Notes under the pieces: generated by a model
The model's input: only the letters and a program-made list of their open reading frames with translations
What the model was told of the DNA's origin: nothing
Databases searched by the model: none
Part shown: one piece after another, positions 10,388-23,569 of the stretch
How positions within the stretch are numbered: the stretch's first letter is position 1
Layout of the letters: the number at the start of each line of letters is the position of its first letter
Virus record (IMG/VR): IMGVR_UViG_3300028610_001208
Location: 1-51,282 of that record
Direction: 5' to 3' (one strand)
Source: a virus
Taxonomy: Duplodnaviria > Caudoviricetes
Length of the DNA: 51,282 bases
Position numbers and translations under genes: made by a program

Positions 10388-10906
10388 TTAGTCAGGCAGC
10401 CGCCGGTGTCCGCCCCACTCCGCGAAGCGATCCACGGCTGACGACGTCTCACGAAGAAAGTCCCCAGAGCAACCAAACCGTCTCGCCTGTTCGCAATAGT
10501 GACGCAACGTCTCCAGTGCAAGAACATCTTTGCCGCGCAGAACAAACACGGGTTCGTCCTCTCTGGGGAACTCCCCACGCTCTGTGGTAATCTTCCCGTA
10601 CTTCAAATCCCTAGCCATGACTCGTCCTTTCCGTATGCACCCGTTCGCCTTCGCCACGTCATCCTCGCTTCCGTTCGACCTGTTGAGGGCGTCCGCCGTC
10701 CGATTGTCCGGATCGGTTTTCTGAAAAAGAGTAATCCCGAGCAGCGCAGGCATGAGCGGACATCCGCTTTTGTGTAGCCCCGCACCCTGGCGACACTCCG
10801 GGCAATCGTGCGACTGAAACCACTCGGCCAACGCACAAGCCGCCCAAATGACCAAGCGCTCTTGGCATATGATACAGCTACACATCGTGTCTTTGCTCTT
10901 CGCCAC
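10388..10906 (-). CDS. Hypothetical protein: Cys-rich N-half plus a conserved DEPVFVLR.KD.LA C-half; internal in-frame start likely at ~10619
   Basis: GGAGG before GTG 10906; AAAGGA RBS before the internal MARDLKYG. Confidence 0.65.
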   Translation of the reverse strand: MAKSKDTMCSCIICQERLVIWAACALAEWFQSHDCPECRQGAGLHKSGCPLMPALLGITLFQKTDPDNRTADALNRSNGSEDDVAKANGCIRKGRVMARDLKYGKITTERGEFPREDEPVFVLRGKDVLALETLRHYCEQARRFGCSGDFLRETSSAVDRFAEWGGHRRLPD

Positions 10907-10922
10907 GTCAGCCTCCCACCGA

Positions 10923-11333
10923 TTACTTCAGCTCATTCGACACGAACTGCCAGTCCCGTAGGTCGATATCACCGTCGCTGTCCCTGTCCATCACCTCGCC
11001 CCATTTCAATGCGGCAGGTGTCACCTCGACTGACCGGATCGATCTCCCAGACACGAGCGAAACAACCGTCCGTCCGCCTGGTCCGTTCTGGTAACGATGC
11101 CAGTGGGTGTACCTCTCCAACGCCTCGCAGTGTTCACGAACATGCCAACAGTCGCGACCGGGCCGCCACACCGAATCCGGTGCTGTACCGATGCAGGGGT
11201 ACAGCTCGAGCAGGTGACACATTTCAATCACGCGCCAGCATTCTCGCCCCGGCGACCATACCGGCACGTCGCACACGTCGGCGCGAACGGAGCAGCAGAC
11301 CAAGGATAGGGCTATGATCCGTGCCGCCTTCAT
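10923..11333 (-). CDS. Predicted secreted protein with a duplicated Cys motif and a C-terminal dockerin/EF-hand-like motif
   Basis: Signal peptide; VW.PGR.CW.V.E.C..LE.Y twice; DRDSDGDIDLRDW. Confidence 0.75.
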   Translation of the reverse strand: MKAARIIALSLVCCSVRADVCDVPVWSPGRECWRVIEMCHLLELYPCIGTAPDSVWRPGRDCWHVREHCEALERYTHWHRYQNGPGGRTVVSLVSGRSIRSVEVTPAALKWGEVMDRDSDGDIDLRDWQFVSNELK

Positions 11334-11466
11334 CCGAGTTCTCCTTTAAGCCCGCACGACGCCGGCGCGACCAGATCAACTCCAGAGGGAGGCATTCTGA
11401 CCGACGCCGCACGGGCACCTGGGAGGGGCTCCGGCGCTAACCGGAGCCGTCAAACGAACGTAACAC

Positions 11467-11587
11467 TAGGCTCGGTGGGACTTGAACCCACGTTCGCGAT
11501 CGCATCCGAGAGGCGGGGAGAGTGATAGCCGCCACCGAAAACTCTCGCTACCTCCTTAGCCGCACCCCCAAAGTGCGACTCGAGCCT
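11467..11587 (-). ncRNA. tRNA-like RNA 2 (acceptor stem and T-arm, non-tRNA core)
   Basis: AGGCTCG/CGAGCCT acceptor; GTGGG-TTCAAGT-CCCAC T-arm; D and anticodon regions replaced by other hairpins. Confidence 0.65.
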
Positions 11588-11614
11588 ACCTCATCGCTTG
11601 GTGAGGCGTTGAAC

Positions 11615-11719
11615 AGGGCGGGGCAGGACTCGAACCTGCGACCCCCCGGTCTTGCGACAGCCGCTCACGCTAAACTGCCTCACCGGTGCCAGGTGCTCTA
11701 CCAACTGAGCTACCCGCCC
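11615..11719 (-). tRNA. tRNA-like RNA 1 with a 39-nt anticodon loop (no assignable anticodon)
   Basis: GGGCGGG-TA-GCTC-AGTTGGTA-GAGC-A-CCTGG-[39 nt]-CCGGG-GGGTC-GCAGG-TTCGAGT-CCTGC-CCCGCCC-T; no encoded CCA. Confidence 0.8.
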
Positions 11720-11849
11720 TTACGCCGCCGACCGACTAGGGTACGGCCGGCGGCTCTGTCGATAGTACAATCAGCGCATGGCCACTCCTTTCCGACAAGT
11801 TGAAAGGTTCGACTACCACGACGCGACGAAGTTGCCGCGCCCGAGGGTG

Positions 11850-12047
11850 CTATTTTTCTGCATCACGCAATTGTTCCGCCGCCTCTTCGAGCTTCTCTTG
11901 CAGATCGTCTCGCTCGGCGGTCATCGCCTCGAGTTCTTCTTGTAGCGCGTCAACGCGAGTTTCAATGTCTTTCCCTATCCCACCAAGCGCTCCGCACGCA
12001 TCATCTATCACGCCGCGCCAGGCCGCCGTATCGTCTGGGTCGATCAT
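11850..12047 (-). CDS. Small coiled-coil protein
   Basis: TGATG coupling to the upstream gene; heptad pattern. Confidence 0.7.
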   Translation of the reverse strand: MIDPDDTAAWRGVIDDACGALGGIGKDIETRVDALQEELEAMTAERDDLQEKLEEAAEQLRDAEK

Positions 12048-13147
12048 CACGCAGCTCCCGCGGTCGAGGCACGAGACAGCGCCCCATCCAGCTCGCCCCA
12101 CCGCCCCGGACCAAGCTTCATCACCTCGGGTTGCGACAGCATTCCGAGGCCGAACTGTTTGCGGATCGCCTCCTGTTGTCCGTGCGTCAGGTCGCGGTAG
12201 ATGTCCACCATCTCCCGGAACCGCTCCAGCGTCATGACCTCTTCCGGGGCCTCCTCTTCCGGGGGATCAGTTGCCTTCTTCTTGGCCTTCGGCTCCGGTT
12301 TCGGCTTCTCGGGTGGCGCCTCCACGGGCTTCCTCCCTGCCGCTTGGGCTGCTGCGGCGCCCACCTTGCTGGCCTTGCTGGCGTTCTTGCCGTCCGAATC
12401 GTCTCCGTCGTCTCGAAGCGCCGGGAACGCCGTGTCGACACTGAGCGTGCCGTCCCGGATCGCATTGAACATGCCGCCCAGTTCAGCCAGGACTTCGAGC
12501 GTTATCTCCTCGACCGACGATTTATCGATGCCGGACAGCAATCGCTCTTCGAACACGCCCATTTTCTGGAAGCTGCCAAGCATGGAGGTTCGACGCTCGA
12601 CCAGCGTAGTCGCGTCACCGATGGCCTTGCGCTTGCACGCCTCGTAGATGGGCGCCCACATGGGTTTCGGTACGACGCGGAACATGCCGTCGCGCATGGC
12701 GATTGAGGCCGCGGCGTTGCAGGTCGTGACGATCATGTCTTCGTTGTATCGCCGTCCGTCGCGGCCCGTGATCCGCCGCTGCTTCTCGACGGAAACCGCG
12801 AGGTTCGTCTCCAGGTCCCACACCGTAGACTGTGCCGTGACCGTAGTCGCGCCGACGTTCGTGATCCGCGTCTGCACCCGAAGGTTGCCCCATGAATGCG
12901 CGAGGATTTCCGCTAGGCGAATGCTTCCGCCCTCGATCTTCTTCCCGGCGCGGGGCAGTGCGTAGAGGCACGACTCGGCGGTGGCCACGTCCATGGTCGC
13001 GAGTTGCGTACACCTCTTGAGCGACTTAACCATGTCGCGCGGAAACTGCTTCGCCGTTCGCACCTGCATGTCCGTCTCGGCGGTCACGATCGACCGAATG
13101 GCGTCCTGGTCGACGATCTCGACTACTAATTGCGGTTCGTCGCTCAC
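12047..13147 (-). CDS. Putative ssDNA-annealing or recombination protein (exonuclease partner)
   Basis: AETDMQVRTAKQFPRD...Y.LPRAGKKIEGGSIRLAE...WGN family pattern usually found near YqaJ genes; AGGAG RBS; low-complexity C-terminal linker. Confidence 0.65.
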   Translation of the reverse strand: MSDEPQLVVEIVDQDAIRSIVTAETDMQVRTAKQFPRDMVKSLKRCTQLATMDVATAESCLYALPRAGKKIEGGSIRLAEILAHSWGNLRVQTRITNVGATTVTAQSTVWDLETNLAVSVEKQRRITGRDGRRYNEDMIVTTCNAAASIAMRDGMFRVVPKPMWAPIYEACKRKAIGDATTLVERRTSMLGSFQKMGVFEERLLSGIDKSSVEEITLEVLAELGGMFNAIRDGTLSVDTAFPALRDDGDDSDGKNASKASKVGAAAAQAAGRKPVEAPPEKPKPEPKAKKKATDPPEEEAPEEVMTLERFREMVDIYRDLTHGQQEAIRKQFGLGMLSQPEVMKLGPGRWGELDGALSRASTAGAA

Positions 13148-13161
13148 TATGTTTTCTCCTT

Positions 13162-13479
13162 TTAGAGTTTTTCCAGTTCCTTCCGTAGCACGGCGACGCT
13201 GTCGTGGATGCCGCTCGCGAAACACCGGCAAGGCATTCGCGTTGTCGCGTGCATCCCTTCCGCTTCCTTGTGGAGCCACCTCTCGCCTTCTTTTACTGGT
13301 ACGGTTGTGCGGCTGAGTTCGCAAGCAATGCATGCCAGCTTTGCCGCCCCTTCCAGCACCTCGATCTGAAAGGCGAGGATTGACCGCAACACATTGGTGC
13401 CAAGCTGTGGGTCGTTAGCATGCTGGCCAGAGTGAATGATGTTGTTGAGTTCCCATAGGTATTTTTCCGCAGTAGTCAT
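13162..13479 (-). CDS. Hypothetical protein
   Basis: ATGA overlap with the exonuclease stop. Confidence 0.6.
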   Translation of the reverse strand: MTTAEKYLWELNNIIHSGQHANDPQLGTNVLRSILAFQIEVLEGAAKLACIACELSRTTVPVKEGERWLHKEAEGMHATTRMPCRCFASGIHDSVAVLRKELEKL

Positions 13480-14402
13480 GGCTTCGCCTCCAGCTCCGGT
13501 TTCGGCTCCACGATCTCGCCCTTGGTGTACGGGTTCGCGTTCGTGTACTGCTTGACGAAACCCGGATGATCGGCATCCAGGCGAGCTTTGTCGAACTTCG
13601 TGCCCTTAATCGGCTTCAGCCAGTAACGACGCCCGTCCGGAAACTCCAGCGTGTCGCCGTCGCCCATGGCAGCCATCATCCGCGCCTTGAGTGCATCCTT
13701 CTCCGCCTTGCAGAATGCCTCTAATTGCTTGACCAGCTCGAATCGCGGCAGGATCTTCTCATCGACGCACTGCACGATCTTTCCCGGCTCTCGTATGACG
13801 CGCTGCAAGTCTTTGAGTGCAGGCGCCGTGCTGATCGTCCACGAGTCGTCCGGCTCACGGCGCGGCACGACGTACTCGTGCCAGAAGACATTCGACCGAT
13901 CCATGAGCACCTGCGCCAACTGGTCGTCGCGTTCGACGTGGAACATGGCGAACTTCAGATGTCCCGACACCAAGCACGCCGGGACGTGGCATAGCTTCTT
14001 ACCTGTGGCCAGCATGTGGCCATGGCCCTGTACGATGACGCGCGTCGGCATTTCGTCGGTACCCGGCTCGCCCCAGCCCCTGGCTGTCGCGCAGTTCAAG
14101 GCGCCCTTGCCCTCGACTGGGTTGCCGGACTCGTTCACGATGGCGTCGATGTTCACCCCGATGGGCGCGCCGTCGACTTTGCGGTACTGATTCTGCGTGA
14201 TCGGCCCCAGCTCGTCGCGGCAATACTCCATGAGCGCCTTCTCGATGTAGTTGCCGGCCTTGAGGTAGCTGTGGTCCAGGTCTTCCATCGCCTGGACCTT
14301 GGACAGCCACACTGCGTACGCGTTGCCGAACAGCATTTCGTACAGGTCGCTCGAGCCGAGATGATTGACCCGGCGCTTGCGCTGCGATTCAGTGATCGGC
14401 AT
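13476..14402 (-). CDS. YqaJ/lambda-exonuclease family recombination nuclease
   Basis: R...LGSSD, Y.VWLSK, GN.IE, NIDAIV, VEGK and Q..GHM motifs. Confidence 0.88.
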   Translation of the reverse strand: MPITESQRKRRVNHLGSSDLYEMLFGNAYAVWLSKVQAMEDLDHSYLKAGNYIEKALMEYCRDELGPITQNQYRKVDGAPIGVNIDAIVNESGNPVEGKGALNCATARGWGEPGTDEMPTRVIVQGHGHMLATGKKLCHVPACLVSGHLKFAMFHVERDDQLAQVLMDRSNVFWHEYVVPRREPDDSWTISTAPALKDLQRVIREPGKIVQCVDEKILPRFELVKQLEAFCKAEKDALKARMMAAMGDGDTLEFPDGRRYWLKPIKGTKFDKARLDADHPGFVKQYTNANPYTKGEIVEPKPELEAKP

Positions 14403-15078: not shown

Positions 15079-15522
15079 ATGATGACGCAAACCATGACCA
15101 GCACGGGCGTTACCCTGCAGGTGACAAGCTGCTGTGTGTGTGGCACGGAGTTCGCGGTGCCTCTCGCCATGCTCAGGGCCAGACAAGAATCGGGGGGTGA
15201 TCTGTACTGCCCCAGCGGCCACTGTCTCACATGGAACGAGACGGAAGTGAAGGAGCTGCGCCGCCAGCTCGCGGGCGAGCAGCAAAAGGTCAACATGGAA
15301 CGTGAATATGTGCGTTGTGAGCGCCTACGACGCATGGCTGAACAAGAGCGCCACGAACATACGAAGCGTCGACTATCTGCCACGCAGGGCGTTGTCACCA
15401 AGACCAAGAAGCGGGTCGGCGGCGGGGCGTGCCCATGCTGTAATCGGTTCTTCCCGAAGCTGCGTAAGCACATGAAGTCGAAGCACCCCGAGTACGCTGC
15501 GGATGTCAGTCTTCCAGCGTAA
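15079..15522 (+). CDS. Zinc-finger/coiled-coil protein
   Basis: CCVCG..F, YCPSGH and a C-terminal CPCC...HMKSKH (C2H2). Confidence 0.8.
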   Translation: MMTQTMTSTGVTLQVTSCCVCGTEFAVPLAMLRARQESGGDLYCPSGHCLTWNETEVKELRRQLAGEQQKVNMEREYVRCERLRRMAEQERHEHTKRRLSATQGVVTKTKKRVGGGACPCCNRFFPKLRKHMKSKHPEYAADVSLPA

Positions 15523-18500
15523 GCTCGTCGCCGAAGTGCTCCATGGCCTGATAGAACGTGTTGCGGCTGCGAATGAATGACGTGGTCATGCGCAGCGGGT
15601 TGCTCTTCTGGTAGATGCGGCGCCCGGAGTCGCGCCAGTCCTGTCGGTGCTTGTCGAGTAGCGCCTTCTTTCCGGTGACGCCCTTCTGCTTCCACTTCTG
15701 GAGTAGTGCGCCCTCTTTGGAGATCGTACCGGACCGCAGGTTGCGTTTCTTGCGCGTCTCACCGCGATCGAAGTGGTCCATGGCGTCCACGACGTCGGAC
15801 AGCGCCTCGTCTTGGATCTGTTCGCGCGTCGCGGTCTTCGGCGTGAACAGCATCATATCGAGAGCGATAGACCACAGCCGTGCAGAGCCCTCCAGCATGA
15901 GTCGTTGCTCGCGCTGCAACTCGGTTTCGTCCACTCGGTCGCTCGCTGCGATCTCCTGAAGCTCGCCCAGCTTGTCGTACATGCGGTCGACGATGCGCGG
16001 AGACGGTCCGGGGCGACGGTGTACGATGCGCCCGATGACCGCGGTGTTCGACCATTGCGGCTCCAGCAGGATCTCTTCGGAGCCCAGGCCCAGTAGTTCG
16101 AGCAGGTCTCTCGAGACTCCGCCGAACGTCCCCTTGATCGCGTTGTCCAGCTTCTTGGGAGACAGTCCCGTGAGTGCTCCCAGGTTGACGGAGAAGCGAG
16201 TCGTGTACTCGCTGTACTGTTCTTCCGTCGGCTTGCGGGCCAGGGCGTCGCTCACGATCGGACGGTCGGAGAAGAAGTTCTTATTCATGCCCCATTCCAT
16301 GGGCACCAACGCGACAGTGGGCAACACCTGCTGGAGCGCCGACATCATAGCGCCATTGGGCGACTCGCCGAGCAGCGCCTGCGACGTGAAGTTCACCGGG
16401 GTCATGAATCCCAGCGTCTCACCGAACCAACGCTCCATGGTCTCCGGATCCTGCCGGTACGCGAGGTTCGCGAACCGCTCCGGGATGCTGGCGAACAACT
16501 GGCCGAACTCGAAGGCACGCGGGATGCGCAGAATCTCTTTCGTGAACGGGATCTCGACGTGCCAGTACAGCGACCGTTCGTCGTCGGTGAGCTGCTTGTA
16601 CCATTCCTTGTCCCGGTTCGCCCACCACAGGGCCATGGTCGGGATCGTGAACGCCGAGATTCCTCGCATGTAAGCGCGCAGCCGTTGCTTGCGCGTGCCC
16701 GTGAACAGGCTGCGGGCGAACAGGCGGGCACCTTGGAGTGTCGCGTTGAAGAACGGCACGATCTGATTGATGGACCGCGACAAGTCCCCGGCGGCCGTGA
16801 AATCGACGGTCGCCCGCTTGCCGGCCAGGACGATTTTGACCATCTGGTCGAACGAGATCGGCGTACCCGGCTGCCAGCCGACGTCCTTGGCCACCTGAGT
16901 CATTTCCGCGACTCGAGCCGCCGTCTCGGGGAACTGGATCAGGTCGACGTAAGTCGACAGCACTTTTCCGGCAGCGTTCTTGGCTGTCCGAGGCCCGTGC
17001 TGGAGACTCCACAGGTCACGCGTCGAGAATCCCGCGATCTGACGGGTGAGCCGACGCGTGTCCGAAAGCTCCTGGCCGAGCCGCTGCATGGTGATCCGGG
17101 CGCCCAGGCTCTCGTACAGCTCCCGGACCGGTGCGGTCTTCGTCTTGAGCGGCAGTGCGCCTAGGAACCCGTCTTGCATGCCCGCCATCCAGCCGGTGAA
17201 TAGTTGGAACGCGTTTCCGTGGGCCTGGCTGTTGATGAGCAGTGTCTGGACGTCTCGGAATGTGTTGGTCACCAAGCCGAATGAAGCACGGTACGCGGTG
17301 TTTCCGAGACGTGCCCACTTGGCCGGCTTCCCCGCCCAGCGCATGAACTTGCCGGTGCCGAGTAGATTCTCGGGGGAGACGCCGCGAATGGCGTCGTAGA
17401 GTGCCGGGTCGAACTCGTAGAACTGGATCTCATTGTTGCGGTAGACGGCGACCCGCGGCCGGCCGTCCGGATCGGTCCGCGGCTGGAGCGCGGGCGAGAA
17501 GAAGGCGACCATTTCCTCGAGCAGCGCCTGATCGCCGCCCTCCTGTACCGCTGTGATCGCCTCTTCGAGCTGCTCGGCGTCCGGGCTCTTGCTGGCGGTC
17601 CGACCCAGCTCGCTCTTGACGCGCTGCAGCAGGTTGTCCAGGTCGGTCCGGAAAGCGACGGCTTGGTGGCGTGGGATCCGCTCGACGAACGCACCGAGGC
17701 CGGGGATCGTGTTGGCCATGGAGATCAGGTGCTCGACGATGAGCGCCTGCTGGGCCGACTGCACCATCTTGACCGCGTTGTTCACCGTGGTTTCGAGCGG
17801 CGCCACGATCCGCCGACTGCTCCCGCGGAGGCTCTTGATGATGTCCGCGCCGTCGATCGAGCCCTGCGTGCGGTGGTACGCGCTCGTAATCGTGTCAAGT
17901 TCCCGGGCGAGCGGCATGTAGTGGCCCGGGTCGGCCTCTCGGATACGCTGGACCATGTGCGCCATGCTCGGCGACGCCTGGGCCAGATAGTCCAGAACCC
18001 CCTCGTTCCAGCGGTAGAAGATCGAGGCGGCTCGCTTGAAATCCCGTAGCTCCGGGTCTCTGTACTTGTTCTGAAGCTCCTGCATCAGCCCGTCGACCTG
18101 CGGCATGGTCACCCCAGCGTCGCGGCCCCCGGGGTGCCTCGGCGTGGGCCGGGACAGCGCCCTTGCCCGCTGTCCGTGCAGAAAGCTCACCCAGTCGGAG
18201 AGCATATCCTGGCCCTTGATGATCGTGTTGATTGTCTCCAGGGCCTCGATCCCTGTGCGCTGGCCAACTAGGTCAGTCATCCCTTTCTTGGCCCACGCCT
18301 CGACGATCCCCTGCGAGGAGCCACGGAACGTCGACGCGATATCGAACAGGTCGGTGCCGCGGAGCCGCTTGTCGACGCCGCCGGCTCGGACGTACGCGGT
18401 GTCCATGAACTGCTGGAGCGGGACCAGCGACTCGAACCACGTCCGCTTCATCCAGGGCAGCGCCTTGTACTTGAGATCGCGAGCCGCCTTCTTGGCTTTT

Positions 18501-21500
18501 TCGGCGAGCGAACTTGGATCCACTCTCGACCGCTCGATCTGCTGACTGGCGGTCATGGCCTGCCAGCGCTCGACTAGTTTCGTGGCCCGTTCGAGCGCTT
18601 TGCGGCCCTTGGGATGCTGGCCGAGCACCGTCGTATCGAAGTAGTCGTAGAAATTGGGGGCCAGGAGCTTGGCCTCGTCCCGGTTCTCGACCCAGAGCCG
18701 CACGAACTCCGCGAACCCCTCGCGCTGGTACCCCCCAGTGGGCACCTTCTCGCCGTACAGCGCCTTGCCGAGTGCGACCAGCTCAGACTTGGCGTTAGCG
18801 TCCTTGACTGACCGGAAAAATCTCCTGTTGCTCTTGTCGACGAACGAGTTACCCCAGACCAATGCCTCCAGGGCGTGGGCGACCTCATGGGCGGCGGTCG
18901 CGAAGTCGTCGGAGTTCCGAACGCGAGTCACCTCGTAGGGACTGATGAAGTATCCGAGCACCTGGCGGCTGAAGACGCCTTTCTTGATGCGCGATACCTG
19001 TTGCATCGAGCTGCTTCGGAACGCGAGCAGCACGTCCTCCAGGGCGTGGAATATGTCGGTTACAGACGTCGTACGCAGCTTTTTGTGGTTCTCTGGTACC
19101 GGACTCGGGTCGGGTCCGCCGATCGGATTGATCGTGCTTCCGGACGCACCACTGTATGGCGGGAGCAGCGATTGGTTGATCGAACCGGTAGTCGGAGGCG
19201 ACTGGCTGGCCGGATCGTCGCCGTAGCCTTTCAGTGGCGCGTCGAACAGTCCAAGCTGGCCCGATTCTTGGTCGATCTTTCGCTGCCTGGCCCCGGCTTT
19301 GGACGCCTCAACATCCTCGCCGAACTTCAAATTTTCCTCGCCTAATTTTAACTGGCGCCCGGCAGTGCCCGCTTTCGACTCGCCCTCTTCCCGCTGGCCA
19401 AGCAGATCGGCCTCTGCCGGCGGAAGGCCCTTCGTCATTTCCTCGGTTACGGACTCCGGAACCTCGCTTTTGATGGCCTCAAGGGCGTTTCTGACGTTCT
19501 GAGCGTCTTCCGGGCGGCCCTGCTTCACTCGGGCGATCATGGCGCCCTCGTCCACGATCGTACCCAGCGACTTGGCCGCGGCCGTGATGGCCGCCGAGCT
19601 CTCGTTCGCCTTGTTGACGACCAGTGCCCGCTGGAACGCTTCGACCATTTGGGCCTGCTGCTGCTTCGTGAACCGAGGAGCCGGCGTGAACGGCACCTCG
19701 GCGGCCTCTGAGAGCCCCGGGTTCTGGGAGGCGCCAGCATCCACCCGATAGCCGCGATTGCCCAGAGGCGCCTCCTGTGACTCCGTGGGCAACCCTGAGA
19801 CGGAATCTACGACCTCGTCCAGGTGCCGGAACGGGAAGGGTCCGCGTACGTTCTCGCCGTTGGCGTCCGACAGGTATGCCTCGTACCCCTCCTGGGTCTG
19901 GAATACGTCGAATCGCTGGCCCTCCGAGTCGCTGGTAAAGACCAGCGCCTCGTTCTGCGGTCCGAACTTGTGGCGGCTCGCCTGCTCCCTGTTGAATTCG
20001 GCGATCTTCCGCGCGATACCCAAATCGACGATTCCGGACACTTCCCGGTCGGTCTTCGCCGACTGGACGAAGCTGCCGGCGTCGTAGCTGATGACGAAAT
20101 CCGGCCCCACCACCAGTTCCGGCTCACCCTCGCCGTCGACCAGTTCGATCCGATCGTCGGCGGCCGTGACGATGTACTCGATGCCGTTGAACTCGATCGA
20201 GTCGCCGACCTTGAGCTTTCCGCCCGTGATCTGCTCGTGCGCGCCGCTGTTGAGCACCTGCCAACTGAGCAGCGACGCCGCGTCCTTGGGCGTGTAGGTG
20301 CTGTACGGATTCGACTGATTGTCGTCGTAGTCGCGCCGCAACTGAGCTAGGGCTCGATTGATCTGGGCCGCGCCCGCCTTTGAGCCTTTGTCGGCGACCT
20401 CGCGTACGGCCTGAAACTCCAGAGTGTTGACGATGAACTCGTTCAGGCCTACTCCTGGCAGGATGACGTCCAGGTAGGGCTGCAACTCGTCGGCCAGGAT
20501 GTTGATCCGTCCACGATTCTCGGCCGACAGATCGCCCACCCAGCGGACCTGGTTTCTGAGGTTCTTGGGCAGATTCTCGCGGAGCGACTCGACCTCGCCA
20601 TTGCCCTCCAGCGTGTACGGGGGCAGAAACTCGTTGTGTGCGATCGGCGTCAGGTCTTCCAGGGCCTCGATCGTCCCGTCATCGAACGTATCGACCATCG
20701 ACCGCAGCTCGCCGCTGGCCGATCGGTCCTGGATCATGGCGACGAGTGCGTTTCGAAGCTCGGCCGCGCCACGCTTCGGCCCCTCCCTCGTTCGCCGGTC
20801 CGGTCGGACCTGCTCTCGGGAGACCTTGATCTGCTGACGGCTCTTCGGCCCGCCGATTTGGACCTGAAACCCGTCCTCCTCGACCGCCACTATGGTGCCC
20901 TTGACTGTCCGAGACTTAGCCGGGTCCGGGCGGACGTGGACGCGTACGCCCTCTTGGAGCGACTCGACGCCCTGTTCTCGGTCCTTCCGCTCGGCCTCCT
21001 GCTCTCGCCTGACGGTTTCGGGGATGTGCTTGCCGAGCTTGACCTGGGCCGCGTAGGTCTGCGCCGCCTCGGGATCGTACTGAGCCCAGATTTCGAATGC
21101 CTCTTGTGCCCGCTCGTTCAGCCCTGTAGCGATGTATCCGTTGACCGCATGCCTGAATCGCTTGTTCCCGTCCTCTGTGAAGTTCGGGTTGCCCGTCTCG
21201 TAGTGGGCGACCGCCGAGGCGAGCGACAGGTTCGGATAGTCCATGTGCTGGCCGTCAGAGTCGAACCAAAACGCCGCTGCGAACTTCTCATCGTTCTGAT
21301 CGACGCCCTGTAGGCCCTTGGCGATGACTCTCGGCCGCGACGTGTTGAGGGCCTGTTGTGACCGATTAAGCCCCGCCGACGGGGCTGGTGCGCGCTCGGC
21401 CTCAATCTTGGACAGCGACAACAGCCGTCGCAGGTCTTTGATGTACTGCTTGCGTGGGTCGTTATCGAACATCCGGGCGCCCGACGTGTACACCGCGGGC

Positions 21501-23569
21501 CCGAAGACTTCGCGCAGGCTTTCTTCTAGCGCCCGCACCCGATTGGTCGCCGACAGGCTCGGATTCGATTCGATCTCCTCCAGCCCAGCCAGCGTATCCT
21601 CCAGTAGCGTGCGCTGTGCGTTGGATTTCGGGTTGTAGCCGGAGTAGCCTAACTTGTCGGCCTTGTTCAGTGCCGGACCGCGCTGATTTTTGAGGATTCC
21701 GACGTGCTGCTCGACGATGTTGGCCATCCGCTGCCGGTCCATCGGGGTGATCGGATCGTTGTCGCCGGCCTTGCCGCTCTGGTGTGCGGCGGTGTGCGAC
21801 TCCGGAACGAAGCGGTAGAGATTCCTGCGGCTCGGGTTCCGCATGAACTCCATAGCCTCGACCATCCGGCCTTTCATCGCGTGCATGACGATCGGAGATG
21901 ACGTCAGTGCGGCGCGCATGGGCGAATTGCCGCCGAGCGCCACGTCGGCAAGCGACCCCGCTCCGCCCTCCTTGGCTTGGAGCAGGGCCGTGGCGTCCTT
22001 TTGGTTCACGGCGTACGCCATACCGAGCGGAACACCTTGGAACAACGCGAACGAGACGCCCATTTGCAGCGCCTCTTTGAACGTCGGGTAGTGAGGATAC
22101 AGCTCGAGCCGGTCGTCGCTCATCCACATGGCCATTTGTTTGAGCGCTGGCGCGATAAACTCCTCGGCGATCTCCGGAACCGGGCCGTTGAACAGGATCA
22201 TGTTGCGCGAGAAGTCCGCGAAGCTCATGCGGGTGCGCAGCTGCTTCTTAGTCGCCTCCTCGACGCCTCGGGCGACGGCTCCGGTTCGGGCGCCGGCCTT
22301 GCCGAGCGCCGGAACCTTCTTCGCAAGCCAGCCGATCGCTGGTTTCGAGAGTCCGCGCAGCATGAACGCCAGTGGGCGGCCGGTGTTCTCGGAGAATATC
22401 TCCAAGACCTGGCCGACGTAGTGATTGCGAAACGCCTCGTCGAATCCGACACCCGACCGAGTTGAGACCAGTTGAAACGCCCCACTCTCCTTGTCGAACC
22501 GGCCATGTACGGTCGGCAGCGAATCCTGCACTGCGCCTGCCGTGATATTAGGGATCCACACGGATGAACTGCCGACGACCCCGACGCCAATCGAGTCCGC
22601 GAGCCATGTCGCGACCTTGGCTCCGACCGAACGAGCCCTCTTGCGTGCCATTGTTTTCGCGGTGTTTTTCGAGACCTGGCCGAGCAGCATCTTCGCCGTC
22701 AACTCGCCCTGCCGCTTGGCGATCGCCTTGGCGAAAGCCTTTTTAGCGGCAACCTTTCCGCCTTTGAGGAGGGCCTGCTTTCCTGCCTGATACAGCCCCA
22801 TGCTCGCGCCGATCTCGATCGCGTAGGCCGGCAGCTCGCTCGTTAAATCGGCGATCGCCCCCGGCCATGTTCGTCCGCGAATGTCGGCGATCATTTCGTC
22901 CTGCATCGCGACGATCACAGAGAGGTCCGCGCCATTCTCTTCGCCGGCCAGGATTCGACTGTTGGCCTCGAGCATGTCGAACATGGATCCGAACGCCATC
23001 GCGTCGCGGAGGAACGGGAACACCTCTAGTTTGGCGGTCTTGTTCGTCAGAACCTCGACGACTCCTCGCTCGCCGGGAAGTTTCTCTGGGGCAGGCGCAT
23101 CGATCCCCTGCGCTGATAGTCCGGCCTCGTCGTATAGTTCTTGGAGGGCAGCGTGCCGATCTTCTGGTCGACCGGAGATGAATTCGGGATCCTGCGCGGC
23201 CATCATCCAGAGCGAGTTTTCGGTGATGCGGCGACGCAGTGCCCGCACGTCCGGATCCCCTGGTCGCTTGCCTGGAGCACCGAGGGCAAACTCGAGAGGG
23301 TCATCTTGTTTCGGAAACTCCGTTTTGGATGTCGCCTGGTAGTCCCACCAGTTCGTAATCGGACGCGACTCCAGCTTGTCGAGGGTCTCGCGCACGTTGG
23401 GGTCAAGCTGGGAGAACGGACTGAACGCCGCGGCCAGTGCGCCGCCGACGCCGCCACCCTTATCGAGCCGCTGCTGCGCGTCGAAGCGCTGAGCCATGGC
23501 GTCGAGTGAGGTTTCGACATCGGGCAGGAGTTCGTCCGTGAGCGGCGGCGGTGTGGCGAATCGCGTCAT
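15506..23569 (-). CDS. Large polyvalent protein / internal virion (ejection) protein with zincin-like peptidase and LPD38-like domains
   Basis: 2687 aa; last gene of the virion operon; HEVAH...EGFAEF; C-terminal PFFNA..QG, RIPRAFEFG, NKNFFSDRPIV and SPKKLD pattern. Confidence 0.8.
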   Translation of the reverse strand: MTRFATPPPLTDELLPDVETSLDAMAQRFDAQQRLDKGGGVGGALAAAFSPFSQLDPNVRETLDKLESRPITNWWDYQATSKTEFPKQDDPLEFALGAPGKRPGDPDVRALRRRITENSLWMMAAQDPEFISGRPEDRHAALQELYDEAGLSAQGIDAPAPEKLPGERGVVEVLTNKTAKLEVFPFLRDAMAFGSMFDMLEANSRILAGEENGADLSVIVAMQDEMIADIRGRTWPGAIADLTSELPAYAIEIGASMGLYQAGKQALLKGGKVAAKKAFAKAIAKRQGELTAKMLLGQVSKNTAKTMARKRARSVGAKVATWLADSIGVGVVGSSSVWIPNITAGAVQDSLPTVHGRFDKESGAFQLVSTRSGVGFDEAFRNHYVGQVLEIFSENTGRPLAFMLRGLSKPAIGWLAKKVPALGKAGARTGAVARGVEEATKKQLRTRMSFADFSRNMILFNGPVPEIAEEFIAPALKQMAMWMSDDRLELYPHYPTFKEALQMGVSFALFQGVPLGMAYAVNQKDATALLQAKEGGAGSLADVALGGNSPMRAALTSSPIVMHAMKGRMVEAMEFMRNPSRRNLYRFVPESHTAAHQSGKAGDNDPITPMDRQRMANIVEQHVGILKNQRGPALNKADKLGYSGYNPKSNAQRTLLEDTLAGLEEIESNPSLSATNRVRALEESLREVFGPAVYTSGARMFDNDPRKQYIKDLRRLLSLSKIEAERAPAPSAGLNRSQQALNTSRPRVIAKGLQGVDQNDEKFAAAFWFDSDGQHMDYPNLSLASAVAHYETGNPNFTEDGNKRFRHAVNGYIATGLNERAQEAFEIWAQYDPEAAQTYAAQVKLGKHIPETVRREQEAERKDREQGVESLQEGVRVHVRPDPAKSRTVKGTIVAVEEDGFQVQIGGPKSRQQIKVSREQVRPDRRTREGPKRGAAELRNALVAMIQDRSASGELRSMVDTFDDGTIEALEDLTPIAHNEFLPPYTLEGNGEVESLRENLPKNLRNQVRWVGDLSAENRGRINILADELQPYLDVILPGVGLNEFIVNTLEFQAVREVADKGSKAGAAQINRALAQLRRDYDDNQSNPYSTYTPKDAASLLSWQVLNSGAHEQITGGKLKVGDSIEFNGIEYIVTAADDRIELVDGEGEPELVVGPDFVISYDAGSFVQSAKTDREVSGIVDLGIARKIAEFNREQASRHKFGPQNEALVFTSDSEGQRFDVFQTQEGYEAYLSDANGENVRGPFPFRHLDEVVDSVSGLPTESQEAPLGNRGYRVDAGASQNPGLSEAAEVPFTPAPRFTKQQQAQMVEAFQRALVVNKANESSAAITAAAKSLGTIVDEGAMIARVKQGRPEDAQNVRNALEAIKSEVPESVTEEMTKGLPPAEADLLGQREEGESKAGTAGRQLKLGEENLKFGEDVEASKAGARQRKIDQESGQLGLFDAPLKGYGDDPASQSPPTTGSINQSLLPPYSGASGSTINPIGGPDPSPVPENHKKLRTTSVTDIFHALEDVLLAFRSSSMQQVSRIKKGVFSRQVLGYFISPYEVTRVRNSDDFATAAHEVAHALEALVWGNSFVDKSNRRFFRSVKDANAKSELVALGKALYGEKVPTGGYQREGFAEFVRLWVENRDEAKLLAPNFYDYFDTTVLGQHPKGRKALERATKLVERWQAMTASQQIERSRVDPSSLAEKAKKAARDLKYKALPWMKRTWFESLVPLQQFMDTAYVRAGGVDKRLRGTDLFDIASTFRGSSQGIVEAWAKKGMTDLVGQRTGIEALETINTIIKGQDMLSDWVSFLHGQRARALSRPTPRHPGGRDAGVTMPQVDGLMQELQNKYRDPELRDFKRAASIFYRWNEGVLDYLAQASPSMAHMVQRIREADPGHYMPLARELDTITSAYHRTQGSIDGADIIKSLRGSSRRIVAPLETTVNNAVKMVQSAQQALIVEHLISMANTIPGLGAFVERIPRHQAVAFRTDLDNLLQRVKSELGRTASKSPDAEQLEEAITAVQEGGDQALLEEMVAFFSPALQPRTDPDGRPRVAVYRNNEIQFYEFDPALYDAIRGVSPENLLGTGKFMRWAGKPAKWARLGNTAYRASFGLVTNTFRDVQTLLINSQAHGNAFQLFTGWMAGMQDGFLGALPLKTKTAPVRELYESLGARITMQRLGQELSDTRRLTRQIAGFSTRDLWSLQHGPRTAKNAAGKVLSTYVDLIQFPETAARVAEMTQVAKDVGWQPGTPISFDQMVKIVLAGKRATVDFTAAGDLSRSINQIVPFFNATLQGARLFARSLFTGTRKQRLRAYMRGISAFTIPTMALWWANRDKEWYKQLTDDERSLYWHVEIPFTKEILRIPRAFEFGQLFASIPERFANLAYRQDPETMERWFGETLGFMTPVNFTSQALLGESPNGAMMSALQQVLPTVALVPMEWGMNKNFFSDRPIVSDALARKPTEEQYSEYTTRFSVNLGALTGLSPKKLDNAIKGTFGGVSRDLLELLGLGSEEILLEPQWSNTAVIGRIVHRRPGPSPRIVDRMYDKLGELQEIAASDRVDETELQREQRLMLEGSARLWSIALDMMLFTPKTATREQIQDEALSDVVDAMDHFDRGETRKKRNLRSGTISKEGALLQKWKQKGVTGKKALLDKHRQDWRDSGRRIYQKSNPLRMTTSFIRSRNTFYQAMEHFGDELTLED

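What the first reader, a model, noticed from the sequence alone, without database searches (positions are those of the whole stretch)
11346..11791. Cluster of non-decoding tRNA-scaffold RNAs inside the early operon
Seen: a ~440-nt gap with no convincing protein gene holds, in transcript order (minus strand), an RBS-led minigene, a hairpin (11724-11754), tRNA-like RNA 1, a small hairpin, tRNA-like RNA 2 and two more stems (11427-11448, 11350-11416). Both tRNA-like elements keep perfect acceptor stems and T-arms but have lost a normal anticodon loop. Known: acceptor plus T-arm is what RNase P, RNase Z and the CCA-adding enzyme read, and P1 c4, P4 CI and YrlA RNAs use tRNA-like processing or structure for non-decoding roles. 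Inference: the phage may release stable effector RNAs from tRNA scaffolds, acting as antisense guides, decoys for anticodon nucleases or other tRNA-sensing defences, or ribosome-binding RNAs.
Basis: partly seen in the sequence, partly recalled or inferred. Interest (0 to 1): 0.85.

Follow-up and report, generated by a model that had tools for sequence, protein, structure and literature searches.

The report
Non-decoding tRNA-shaped RNAs after phage recombination genes
A small uncultured phage carries two tRNA-shaped RNA elements that cannot read codons, placed just after its DNA-recombination genes; distantly related phages have similar elements at the same spot, so they probably work as RNA cutting and stabilising signals or as tRNA look-alikes, not as broken tRNA genes.

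Summary
The window is a complete 51,282-bp phage genome. The gap 11334-11849 (minus strand) holds two tRNA-shaped elements and four hairpins.

T1 (11615-11719) is a true tRNA body. It scores 53 bits on Rfam tRNA against a cut-off of 29. About 39 nt stand where the 7-nt anticodon loop should be.

T2 (11467-11587) keeps only a 7-bp acceptor stem and a T-arm. It scores 18.7 bits.

New here: tRNA-shaped elements lie on the coding strand just after the same gene, a Red-beta-like annealing protein next to a RecE-like exonuclease, in 8 of 83 other loci. Of 27 T-arm motifs, 12 fall in that 10% of the search space (P 4e-6). The four strongest elements at this position all lack a usable anticodon arm. 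The five strongest elsewhere are all ordinary tRNAs.

The cores range from a bare tetraloop to about 150 nt, so the scaffold itself looks like the working part. No antisense target, Ro60 gene, splicing enzyme or significant intron motif was found.

My best reading (0.4) is that these are RNase P/Z processing and stability signals, like plant-mitochondrial t-elements. Decoys for tRNA-cutting defences remain possible. No expression data exist.

This scan has noted non-decoding tRNA-shaped phage RNAs before on other DNA. The link to recombination genes is new.

The parts
13476..14402 (-). RecE-like recombination exonuclease gene (308 aa), first gene of the recombination module
   Evidence: phrog_434, E 4.1e-32. 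Homologues lie next to the anchor gene in 19 of 118 related loci.
12047..13333 (-). Anchor gene: probable single-strand annealing protein. The longest ORF is 428 aa; the database gene call is 366 aa, so the true start is probably nearer 13147.
   Evidence: phrog_3657, E 7.3e-50. No Pfam or PDB sequence match. AlphaFold model with mean pLDDT 73. Top Foldseek hit is the lambda Red-beta N-terminal domain, 7ujl_A, E 0.045, probability 0.92, which is weak. 541 relatives in metagenomes.
11850..12101 (-). Small coiled-coil ORF (83 aa) overlapping the anchor's 3' end; last ORF before the RNA cluster
   Evidence: ORF list. Only weak coiled-coil-type matches.
11771..11791 (-). AAGGAG-N5-AUG-CGC-UGA minigene; probably fortuitous
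   Evidence: Read in the sequence. No counterpart before the elements of the other loci.
11724..11754 (-). 11-bp G+C-rich hairpin ending 4 nt before the 5' end of T1; candidate protective 3' end of the upstream mRNA after RNase P cleavage
   Evidence: Fold. The 36 nt upstream of T1 fold at -25.5 kcal/mol, and none of 564 background windows is as stable.
11615..11719 (-). T1: complete tRNA body (acceptor, D-arm, variable loop, T-arm) with a 39-nt structured region in place of the 7-nt anticodon loop
   Evidence: Rfam tRNA 53 bits. R1 78.1 bits, but T1 is in that model's seed. ARAGORN finds it only with intron search on, as Arg(CCG) with a 32-nt insert. The loop starts CA, so U33 is missing.
11589..11606 (-). 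Small hairpin CCUCA-N8-UGAGG between T1 and T2
   Evidence: Sequence and fold of the 60 nt upstream of T2. Its stability is not unusual.
11467..11587 (-). T2: 7-bp acceptor stem and T-arm closing a non-tRNA core. The core has a 10-bp hairpin in the D-arm position, then an exposed UAAGGAGGU and a branched region.
   Evidence: Rfam tRNA 18.7 bits, E 0.78. R1 17.7 bits, E 0.07. Its 3' 23-mer equals the 3' ends of ordinary phage tRNAs.
11427..11448 (-). 8-bp hairpin GGCUCCGG-N6-CCGGAGCC
   Evidence: Fold. No U tract follows, and it is not called as a terminator.
11350..11416 (-). Long hairpin directly before the ribosome-binding site of the next gene
   Evidence: Fold of 11346-11466, z-score -3.48.
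10923..11333 (-). Next gene downstream (136 aa, signal-peptide-like N-terminus), preceded by AAAGGAG
   Evidence: ORF list and sequence. No family match. No homologue in the related loci.

Best explanation
T1 and T2 are transcribed as part of the minus-strand early operon and fold into tRNA-shaped modules, with the acceptor stem stacked on the T-arm and, in T1, a normal D-arm. They do not decode. The host's tRNA-end enzymes are expected to recognise them: RNase P at the 5' side, RNase Z or exonucleases at the 3' side, then the CCA-adding enzyme.

They would therefore act as punctuation. RNase P cleavage gives the recombination-gene mRNA a 3' end that stops just after a strong hairpin. The downstream mRNA starts with two hairpins. 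Two stable tRNA-shaped small RNAs are released as products.

Shown here: the structures, their non-decoding nature, and their recurrence at this position. Inferred: transcription, cleavage by RNase P and RNase Z, and the effect on mRNA stability.
For: 1. T1 is a genuine tRNA body without an anticodon loop. T2 has the 12-bp acceptor/T-stem stack that RNase P and RNase Z read.
2. There is a position effect. Of 27 T-arm motifs in 118 loci that encode the anchor protein, 12 lie on the coding strand 0-1800 nt after it. That zone is 9.9% of the search space (binomial P 3.8e-6). They lie in 8 of the 83 loci with at least 800 nt downstream.
3. The elements often come in pairs, as in the window: L143, L226, L215 and L179.
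4. Under one scaffold model, the four strongest hits in the zone are W_T1, L141, L195 and L143a. W_T1, L141 and L143a are in the model's seed; L195 (41.1 bits) is not. None of the four is called a tRNA by default ARAGORN. The five strongest hits outside the zone are all ordinary tRNAs. My own Fisher count from these two tallies gives 1 in 126.
5. The cores are unrelated and vary from a 4-bp stem with a GGCA loop (L143a, Rfam tRNA 43.4 bits) to about 150 nt (L139, L179). That fits a function of the scaffold, not of a payload.
6. L143a starts 5 nt after the anchor gene's stop codon. All elements fill 250-450-nt intergenic gaps on the coding strand.
7. The base before the 5' end is U in 6 of 11 elements. 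By my own rough estimate, assuming about 22% T, P is about 0.02. An unusually stable hairpin ends 2-4 nt before W_T1, L139 and L141.
8. There is a precedent. Plant-mitochondrial t-elements are tRNA-like structures with the GGTTCRANYCC motif that define mRNA 5' and 3' ends through RNase P and RNase Z (PMC1920247, passages read). M. smegmatis YrlA is cut by RNase P and receives CCA (PMC4201824, passages read).
Against: - There is no expression or end-mapping data of any kind.
- The elements are present in only about 10% of loci with the anchor gene.
- They are absent from the closest sister loci (L216, L236, L152) and from the whole 51-kb relative G001.
- Their presence needs 7 changes on the anchor tree, no fewer than shuffled labels (mean 7.7). 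They are therefore dispensable and gained or lost often.
- An upstream hairpin is stable in only 3-4 of 11 cases.
- A plain processing signal would not need T1's perfect D-arm or a tandem pair.
- My detection requires intact acceptor and T stems, so decayed copies would be missed.
- W_T2 and several partner elements score weakly (14-21 bits).
Confidence: 0.4

Rival explanations
1. tRNA-body decoys or sponges. The released RNAs mimic the acceptor/T-arm/elbow half of a tRNA and titrate a host factor that reads it. Such a factor could be a tRNA-cutting or tRNA-modifying defence protein that is switched on when phage recombination or anti-RecBCD functions are sensed. The decoys would themselves be immune because the target anticodon arm is gone.
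For: - The scaffold is what is kept, not the core, and T1, L141, L143a and L195 keep a full D/T elbow.
- The elements sit directly after an exonuclease-annealase module.
- P2 OLD is triggered by inhibition of RecBCD by lambda Gam and cuts off the anticodon stem of tRNAs. Phage tRNAs with altered anticodon stems resist it (PMC12445682; abstract, introduction and discussion read).
- The pairs and the hairpin-protected ends fit stable, abundant RNAs.
Against: - No defence system, Gam homologue or binding partner was identified here.
- Anticodon nucleases need the loop that is missing.
- A sponge must be very abundant, which was not tested.
- Weak elements such as T2, L139 and L179 lack a D-arm elbow.
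- The distribution is patchy.
Confidence: 0.2
2. tRNA scaffolds that carry phage-specific effector RNAs. The inserted cores would be the active parts (antisense, aptamer or ribosome-binding RNA). The tRNA frame would only give processing and stability, as in engineered tRNA-scaffold RNAs.
For: - The T1 insert folds into a hairpin capped by a GUGA tetraloop.
- T2 displays a 9-nt perfect Shine-Dalgarno sequence.
- Large structured cores occur in L139 and L179.
- Many other phage contigs carry tRNA bodies with 10-30 extra nt in the anticodon region.
Against: - The longest complementarity to the phage's own transcripts is 10 nt (T1 core) and 12 nt (T2 core). Shuffled cores give 9-14 nt.
- L143a and L226b have almost no core.
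- No core sequence is shared between loci.
- AAGGAGG without a start codon is common in this genome, 5 of 6 occurrences on this strand.
- Host targets could not be tested.
Confidence: 0.12
3. Decaying or hitch-hiking tRNA genes with no present function. Phage tRNA genes tend to land at module boundaries, and what is seen are remnants on their way out.
For: - Patchy distribution, and absence in sister loci and in the nearest full-length relative.
- DNA similarity between sister loci stops before the elements, so they lie at a mosaic junction.
- T2's 3' 23-mer is identical to the 3' ends of ordinary phage tRNA-Ile, tRNA-Leu and tRNA-Lys.
- T2 scores poorly as a tRNA.
Against: - No intact tRNA was seen at this position, 0 of the 4 strong in-zone hits, against 5 of 5 elsewhere.
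- By my own count, acceptor, D and T stems are intact in 62 of 64 pairs across W_T1, L141, L143a and L195, while the anticodon arm is abnormal in all four. This count is biased by how the elements were found.
- T2 has acquired a new, perfectly complementary 5' strand.
- The elements are enriched on the coding strand only.
Confidence: 0.15
4. T1 is a working tRNA-Arg(CCG) with a 32-nt intron after position 37 that is spliced out.
For: - With intron search on, ARAGORN calls tRNA-Arg(CCG) with a 32-nt intron at the canonical 37/38 site.
- The spliced loop would read CACCGGA, one base away from my recalled CUCCGGA of bacterial tRNA-Arg(CCG).
- One full bulge-helix-bulge-like arrangement can be drawn at positions 28-38/59-69.
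Against: - No combination of loop prefix and suffix gives U33, by my reading of the sequence.
- The bulge-helix-bulge-like motif is not coaxial with the anticodon stem, would leave an 8-nt loop, and appears in 23% of 2000 shuffles.
- The phage encodes no splicing endonuclease or RtcB.
- 32 nt is far too short for a group I intron, and Rfam reports none.
- Relatives of the anchor gene are found in bacterial, not archaeal, genomes.
- The sister elements L141, L143a and L195 have no anticodon at all.
Confidence: 0.04
5. A DNA-level role. The conserved about 20-bp T-arm sequence would serve as a short homology patch, or as an old attachment site, that promotes module exchange next to the recombination genes.
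For: - The elements lie exactly where similarity between related phages breaks off.
- The T-arm and acceptor 3' strand is shared word for word with unrelated phage tRNAs.
- Bacteroidales relatives have tRNA-Arg genes or tRNA fragments 3.5-5 kb upstream, typical of attachment sites.
Against: - Such a role needs neither a complementary 5' acceptor strand nor a D-arm, yet both are kept.
- The strand bias toward the coding strand is unexplained.
- No integrase was found among the ORFs scanned, though not every ORF was scanned.
Confidence: 0.05

Closest known systems
t-elements of plant mitochondria (Hanic-Joyce 1990; Forner 2007, PMC1920247, passages read)
   Same: Both are non-canonical tRNA-like structures with a well-kept T-arm (GGTTCRANYCC) and an acceptor-like stem, embedded in mRNA precursors. 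In t-elements the ends coincide with mRNA 5' and 3' ends made by RNase P and RNase Z, and stable t-element RNA with added C or CCA is observed. I used the same motif to find the phage elements.
   Different: t-elements are organellar, not viral or bacterial. The two have no common descent. Processing is mapped for t-elements and untested here. The phage elements come in tandem pairs after one particular gene module.
Phage T4 stable RNAs C and D (species 1 and 2 RNAs, rnaC/rnaD). This is recalled, not seen in any call; earlier notes of this scan name them too.
   Same: Both are phage-encoded, tRNA-processed small RNAs that do not decode and have no known function.
   Different: The T4 RNAs lie inside a cluster of eight real tRNA genes, whereas this phage has no ordinary tRNA gene. 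No sequence comparison was made, because I had no T4 sequence from a tool.
YrlA / bacterial Y RNAs (Rfam RF02553; Chen 2014, PMC4201824, passages read)
   Same: Both have a tRNA-like domain with T-arm, D-arm and acceptor-like stem. Some YrlA RNAs are cut by RNase P and receive CCA, and YrlA RNAs also occur in phages.
   Different: YrlA scores only 18.4 bits here against a cut-off of 69, and that match spans T1 and T2 out of register. The phage has no Ro60/TROVE gene. YrlA has the T-arm before the D-arm in the sequence, while T1 has the normal order.
Phage tRNAs that evade tRNA-cutting defences (P2 OLD-resistant tRNA-Thr, PMC12445682; titles and abstract openings of PMC10264068 and PMC11555353 seen in the listing)
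   Same: Both are phage-encoded tRNA-type genes whose anticodon arm differs from the host's. Both have a link to defences triggered by phage recombination or anti-RecBCD functions.
   Different: Those tRNAs still decode and replace the cut host tRNA. T1 and T2 have no anticodon loop and cannot do that.
Other non-decoding tRNA-shaped phage RNAs noted earlier in this scan (e1-5391835, e1-5967310, e1-5651874, e1-5380939)
   Same: All keep the acceptor and T-arm top half of a tRNA and have the anticodon region replaced. They are phage-borne and apparently undescribed.
   Different: Most of those lie in tRNA arrays of large phages and form sequence families. Here the elements are the only tRNA-like genes of a 51-kb phage. 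They are tied to a gene-order position after the annealase gene, not to a conserved sequence.

Membership tests
Canonical decoding tRNA (Rfam RF00005) | Score at or above the Rfam gathering threshold (29 bits) | tested here: met
   T1 scores 53 bits. T2 does not pass: 18.7 bits, E 0.78.
Canonical decoding tRNA (Rfam RF00005) | 5-bp anticodon stem closing a 7-nt loop with U33 and a readable anticodon | tested here: not met
   T1 has 38 nt where 6 loop positions are expected and its loop starts CA. Default ARAGORN finds no tRNA in the window. T2 has no anticodon arm in its lowest-energy fold.
Canonical decoding tRNA (Rfam RF00005) | 7-bp acceptor stem, T-arm with a TTCRANY loop, and D-arm with GG | tested here: met
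   T1 has all three, 16 of 16 pairs. T2 has the acceptor and T-arm only; a 10-bp hairpin with a UGG loop stands in the D-arm position.
Intron-bearing tRNA (bulge-helix-bulge type, or group I) | Bulge-helix-bulge motif continuous with the anticodon stem, and a canonical 32-37 loop prefix | tested here: not met
   One such arrangement exists at 28-38/59-69, but it is not coaxial with the stem. An arrangement of this kind occurs in 23% of 2000 shuffles. No prefix-suffix combination restores U33 (my reading of the sequence).
Intron-bearing tRNA (bulge-helix-bulge type, or group I) | Splicing machinery available (endonuclease and ligase), or a self-splicing intron fold | tested here: not met
   The phage has no tRNA_int_endo and no RtcB. 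There is no group I intron match, and the insert is only 32 nt. The host's machinery is unknown; relatives of the anchor gene are in bacterial genomes.
YrlA / Y RNA (RF02553) | Covariance-model score at or above 69 bits | tested here: not met
   18.4 bits, E 0.78.
YrlA / Y RNA (RF02553) | An adjacent Ro60 (TROVE) gene | tested here: not met
   No PF05731 match in the whole genome at E up to 1.
tmRNA | tRNA-like domain together with a tag reading frame and pseudoknots | tested here: not met
   ARAGORN finds no tmRNA. There is no Rfam tmRNA match in the window.
P1 c4 / P4 CI antisense RNAs | Match to the described Rfam family | tested here: not met
   No such family appears among the matches up to E 10 in 11000-12200.
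t-element-like processing signal (a functional class, not a lineage) | tRNA-like fold with the GGTTCRANYCC motif and a closing stem, inside a transcription unit | tested here: met
   T1 has GGTTCGAGTCC and T2 has GGTTCAAGTCC, each with a 7-bp closing stem, on the coding strand between genes.
t-element-like processing signal (a functional class, not a lineage) | RNA ends that coincide with the element borders, and dependence on RNase P and RNase Z | not testable with these tools
   No RNA data are available. This needs end mapping or in-vitro cleavage.
T4 rnaC/rnaD-type stable RNAs | Location within a phage tRNA gene cluster | tested here: not met
   The genome has no ordinary tRNA gene.
T4 rnaC/rnaD-type stable RNAs | Sequence or structure homology to rnaC or rnaD | not tested

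The most novel reading that the evidence does not exclude
The tandem tRNA-shaped RNAs are a counter-defence carried together with the recombination module. The exonuclease-annealase functions, or a linked anti-RecBCD activity, risk setting off host or prophage systems that kill by cutting tRNAs in the anticodon arm, as P2 OLD does. The phage would then co-transcribe abundant, RNase P-processed tRNA bodies that have no anticodon arm to cut. These would occupy or jam the nuclease. That would make them natural RNA inhibitors of tRNA-targeting immunity, distinct from the known strategy of supplying replacement tRNAs.
Probability: 0.12. Interest if true: 0.85.

Novelty: new variant of a known kind. 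Interest (0 to 1): 0.6.

Why it matters
Phage tRNA genes are usually explained by codon supply or, more recently, by replacement of tRNAs cut by host defences. Elements that keep the top half of a tRNA and have lost the decoding half fit neither explanation.

These elements recur at one gene-order position, after an exonuclease-annealase module, in phages of different bacterial phyla. That turns a curiosity into a testable class.

- If they are processing and stability signals, bacterial viruses use the tRNA punctuation known from organelles to shape operon expression.
- If they are decoys, they are a new kind of RNA anti-defence.

Either way they are natural counterparts of the engineered tRNA scaffold used to express stable RNAs. 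They are also invisible to standard tRNA finders, so phage annotation misses them. The anchor protein is itself an unannotated, very widespread Red-beta-like family.

Tried and rejected
**Closer relatives for covariation**
- An exact 37-mer of T1 found nothing in viral contigs.
- The nearest viral relative, L002/G001 (41% identity on the anchor), has no tRNA-like element in its whole record.
- No orthologous alignment of T1 or T2 exists, so no covariation test was run.

**Other checks that led nowhere**
- Expression: the look-up of sequencing runs listed one DNA run, which may be the source sample. No RNA holder is listed.
- Blastn of the region against cultured phages found no match.
- A tblastn search with the anchor found 18 cultured-phage records, all below 60% identity. 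The best, Microcystis phage Mae-JY30, has no gap after the gene.
- MAFFT misaligned the 5' ends of nine heterogeneous elements (A2), so that alignment was dropped. The model R1 was built from A3 instead.
- Parent tRNA of T1: in five bacterial genomes that carry anchor relatives, the two halves of T1 match different isotypes (Phe, Ala, Lys, Val). No single parent could be named.
- No sigma-70-like promoter was found in 10800-12300. The only terminator-like site found is on the plus strand.
- No integrase, RNA ligase, CCA-adding enzyme, Ro60 or splicing endonuclease was found. Not every small ORF was scanned.

**Elements set aside**
- L173 (63 nt) was dropped as doubtful. It lies inside a 168-aa ORF and does not fold as a cloverleaf. 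It is still counted among the 12 motifs and 8 loci.
- L153 and L163, which ARAGORN called with 267- and 357-nt introns, were not followed up.
- L233 (262 nt, minus strand) was taken as a chance hit of the strict scanner.

**Literature**
- Six searches found no description of tRNA-like elements next to phage annealase or recombination genes, or of insert-bearing non-decoding phage tRNA bodies.
A description may therefore exist that I could not see.
Full report
**What the window is**

The window is a complete virus record of 51,282 bp with direct terminal repeats and an estimated completeness of 100%. G+C is about 60%. Nearly all genes are on the minus strand.

Few proteins can be named:
- a large terminase, a major head protein and a tail fibre;
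- a DNA methyltransferase;
- a 2687-aa giant protein;
- a RecE-like exonuclease at 13476-14402, phrog_434, E 4e-32.

The exonuclease is followed by a 105-aa ORF and then the gene I used as an anchor, 12047-13333. Its longest ORF is 428 aa and the database gene call is 366 aa. It belongs to phrog_3657, of unknown function. It has no Pfam or PDB sequence match. An AlphaFold model built from a 14-sequence alignment has mean pLDDT 73. The model's best Foldseek hit is the lambda Red-beta N-terminal domain, 7ujl_A, with E 0.045 and probability 0.92. None of the 1217 listed matches reaches E 0.001. With the exonuclease next door, I read the anchor as a probable single-strand annealing protein, but the fold evidence is weak.

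**Checking the observation**

Between the stop of an 83-aa ORF (11850) and the start of the next gene (11333) lie 516 nt on the coding strand.

T1:
- Rfam at gathering thresholds finds exactly one RNA in the whole genome: a tRNA at 11615-11719(-), 53 bits against a threshold of 29.
- The alignment covers model positions 1-71. It puts 38 nt where 6 central anticodon-loop positions belong.
- Acceptor, D and T stems are perfect, 16 of 16 pairs.
- Default ARAGORN finds nothing in the window. With intron search on, it calls tRNA-Arg(CCG) with a 32-nt insert after position 37.

T2, 11467-11587:
- It has a perfect 7-bp closing stem and a T-arm (GUGGG-UUCAAGU-CCCAC).
- It scores only 18.7 bits on Rfam tRNA, E 0.78.
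- In its lowest-energy fold a 10-bp hairpin replaces the D-arm and no anticodon arm exists.
- Both covariance models prefer a second, poorer internal 5' strand.
- Its 3' 23-mer is identical to the 3' ends of ordinary tRNA-Ile, tRNA-Leu and tRNA-Lys genes in 10 of 11 viral stretches that hold it. The eleventh is cut by the locus edge. T2 therefore derives from a real tRNA 3' half.

The five ORFs that overlap the gap match no PHROG or Pfam family. Only T1 and T2, of the three T-arm motifs in the genome, have a 7-bp closing stem.

**Relatives**

DNA searches found nothing close. The nearest viral contig, at 41% identity on the anchor, has no tRNA-like element anywhere in its 51,379 bp.

I therefore collected loci through the anchor protein:
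- 6 from viral contigs;
- 80 from metagenomes, the best of 541 relatives;
- 32 from genomes of Acidobacteriota, Planctomycetota, Gemmatimonadota, Bacteroidota, Pseudomonadota and other phyla.

Only the exonuclease (19 loci) and the anchor (118 loci) are shared with the window. None of the 11 other window proteins tested has a homologue there.

**Recurrence at one position**

A strict scanner required a T-arm, a 7-bp closing stem and a D-stem. In 735,544 nt it found 6 elements; five block-shuffled copies gave 0, 0, 2, 1 and 2. Three of the six (L139, L141, L179) lie on the coding strand within about 750 nt after the anchor.

With only the T-arm motif required, 12 of 27 hits fall on the coding strand 0-1800 nt after the anchor. 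That zone is 9.9% of the search space, which gives a binomial P of 3.8e-6. The 12 hits lie in 8 of the 83 loci that have at least 800 nt downstream. One of the eight, L173, is doubtful.

Several loci have two elements in tandem, as in the window: L143, L226, L215 and L179.

The elements fill intergenic gaps of about 250-450 nt. L143a begins 5 nt after the anchor's stop codon.

Three elements pass the Rfam tRNA threshold, each with an abnormal anticodon arm:
- T1, 53 bits, about 32 nt extra;
- L143a, 43.4 bits, a 4-bp stem with a GGCA loop;
- L141, 39 bits, 41 nt where 15 positions belong.

I built a covariance model of the acceptor, D and T stems only (R1, from 18 sequences) and searched all 118 loci and the window with it.

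| Element | R1 score | Note |
|---|---|---|
| W_T1, L141, L143a | 78.1, 64, 36.8 bits | seed members of the model |
| L195 | 41.1 bits, E 1e-8 | independent hit; its anticodon position holds a 7-bp stem with a 3-nt loop |
| L179 | 20.6 bits | weaker |
| L226b | 18.2 bits | weaker |
| L215 | 18.4 and 15.9 bits | weaker |
| W_T2 | 17.7 bits | weaker |
| L139 | 14 bits | weaker |

No further locus turned up. Of the strong hits (34 bits or more), the four in the zone are never called tRNA by default ARAGORN. The five outside the zone are all ordinary tRNAs: Ile, Leu, Met and two Arg. My own Fisher count from these tallies is 1 in 126.

**Evidence against strict conservation**

- On a FastTree of 83 anchor sequences, the window is sister to L141 (support 94) and close to L143 and L215. 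The label as a whole needs 7 changes, against a mean of 7.7 for shuffled labels; 115 of 500 shuffles need as few.
- The sister loci L216, L236 and L152 have no element even under relaxed criteria.
- DNA similarity between sisters stops before the elements.
- A cultured relative, Microcystis phage Mae-JY30, has no gap after the gene.

The elements are therefore an optional, often exchanged fitting at a mosaic junction.

**Excluding the other readings**

Decoding:
- No 7-nt loop with U33 can be made from T1 by any cut.
- A bulge-helix-bulge-like arrangement exists. It is off-axis, would leave 8 nt in the loop, and an arrangement of this kind appears in 23% of 2000 shuffles.
- The phage has no splicing endonuclease, RtcB or CCA-adding enzyme.

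Described RNA families:
- YrlA scores 18.4 bits against a cut-off of 69, and the phage has no Ro60 gene.
- There is no tmRNA or c4 match.

Antisense guide:
- The longest complementarity of the cores to the phage's own transcripts is 10 and 12 nt. Shuffled cores give 9-14 nt.

Ribosome binding:
- The 9-nt Shine-Dalgarno word in T2 is unique in the genome. Its 7-nt core occurs 6 times on this strand, 5 of them without a start codon.

**Mechanism**

The acceptor stem stacked on the T-arm is the only constant feature, often joined by a D-arm elbow. The cores vary from almost nothing to about 150 nt. So the scaffold is the functional part.

By established knowledge, that scaffold is what RNase P, RNase Z and the CCA-adding enzyme recognise. 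Plant-mitochondrial t-elements use it to set mRNA ends (PMC1920247, passages read). A mycobacterial Y RNA with a 7-bp acceptor stem is cut by RNase P and receives CCA (PMC4201824, passages read).

Two small observations fit this reading:
- The base before the 5' end is U in 6 of 11 elements.
- An unusually stable hairpin ends 2-4 nt before T1, L139 and L141. For T1, none of 564 background windows is as stable. Only 3-4 of 11 elements show such a hairpin.

I therefore favour a punctuation and stability role, with confidence 0.4.

The main rival, at 0.2, is a decoy for proteins that read the tRNA body. It is made attractive by the finding that P2 OLD is triggered by lambda Gam's inhibition of RecBCD and amputates tRNA anticodon stems (PMC12445682; abstract, introduction and discussion read). 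Nothing in this genome ties the elements to such a system. Neutral remnants (0.15), payload scaffolds (0.12), a DNA-level role (0.05) and a spliced tRNA-Arg (0.04) follow.

**Novelty**

Six full-text searches found no description of such elements next to phage recombination genes.

Earlier notes of this scan report non-decoding tRNA-shaped RNAs in other phages, mostly inside tRNA arrays. So the kind has been seen before on other DNA. No note links it to an annealase module.

My own pattern scan also shows many phage contigs with tRNA bodies that carry 10-30 extra nt in the anticodon region.

I rate this a new variant of a known kind, with moderate to high interest. It is limited by the lack of any expression data and by the patchy distribution.

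Noticed in passing
L008-L126 (viral contigs); for example L016 944-1041 and 1346-1439, L036 1107-1200 and 1205-1305, L098 667-761, L116 1965-2064, L123 3236-3329: Many phage contigs carry tRNA bodies of 89-101 nt that pass the Rfam tRNA threshold but have 10-30 extra nt in the anticodon region. Some are in tandem, and most sit among ordinary tRNA genes. None is near a homologue of the anchor protein.
   Followed up: partly
L107 418-515, L035 2548-2647, L120 8358-8456 (L114 is identical), L075 2375-2473: These form a conserved sequence family of about 99-nt tRNA-like genes. They share a fixed motif in the expanded anticodon region (CTCCCTCAWGG..AAGGGCCAAAAYGCCGGGA). Some have an encoded CCA.
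   Followed up: no
L244 3784-3898, L246 7172-7308, L247 2564-2700, L252 8450-8585 and 8973-9070: With intron search on, ARAGORN calls long insert-bearing tRNAs inside large phage tRNA arrays, among them a 'tRNA-Stop(tta)' with a 36-nt insert.
   Followed up: no
L004 and L005, 1719-1884 (-): FuFi-1 RNA (RF02986) matches at 90.4 bits in two low-G+C viral contigs that also encode a distant relative of the anchor protein.
   Followed up: no
L098 50-133 (-) and 2896-2977 (-): A viral contig has a bacterial small SRP RNA match (41.9 bits, cut-off 40) and a tRNA-Sec match (48.6 bits, cut-off 47) beside its tRNA genes.
   Followed up: no
L179 3150-3162: The 201-nt tRNA-shaped element ends with its acceptor stem followed by C-A-U8. 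The closing stem could therefore double as an intrinsic terminator.
   Followed up: no
window 12047-13333 (-) and alignment A1: The anchor protein belongs to a very widespread family with no Pfam model. It has 541 relatives in one metagenome scan and prophage copies in at least ten bacterial phyla. It shows only a weak fold resemblance to Red-beta, and one cultured-phage record names its homologue 'RecE-linked protein'.
   Followed up: partly
L228 2150-2224, L229 2142-2216; partial hits at L223 99-173, L225 1113-1170, L227 547-627 (all minus strand): Bacteroidales prophage relatives have a tRNA-Arg(TCT) gene or a tRNA fragment 3.5-5 kb upstream of the anchor on the opposite strand. These are probably integration sites.
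   Followed up: no
window 15506-23569 (-): A single 2687-aa ORF takes up 16% of the genome. It was not analysed here.
   Followed up: no
window 11564-11587 (-): T2 has two mutually exclusive 5' acceptor strands. The outer one pairs in 7 of 7 positions. The inner one pairs in 5 of 7 and would give a more cloverleaf-like fold with AAGGAGG as the D-loop. This could be an RNA switch or the trace of a 5' extension.
   Followed up: partly
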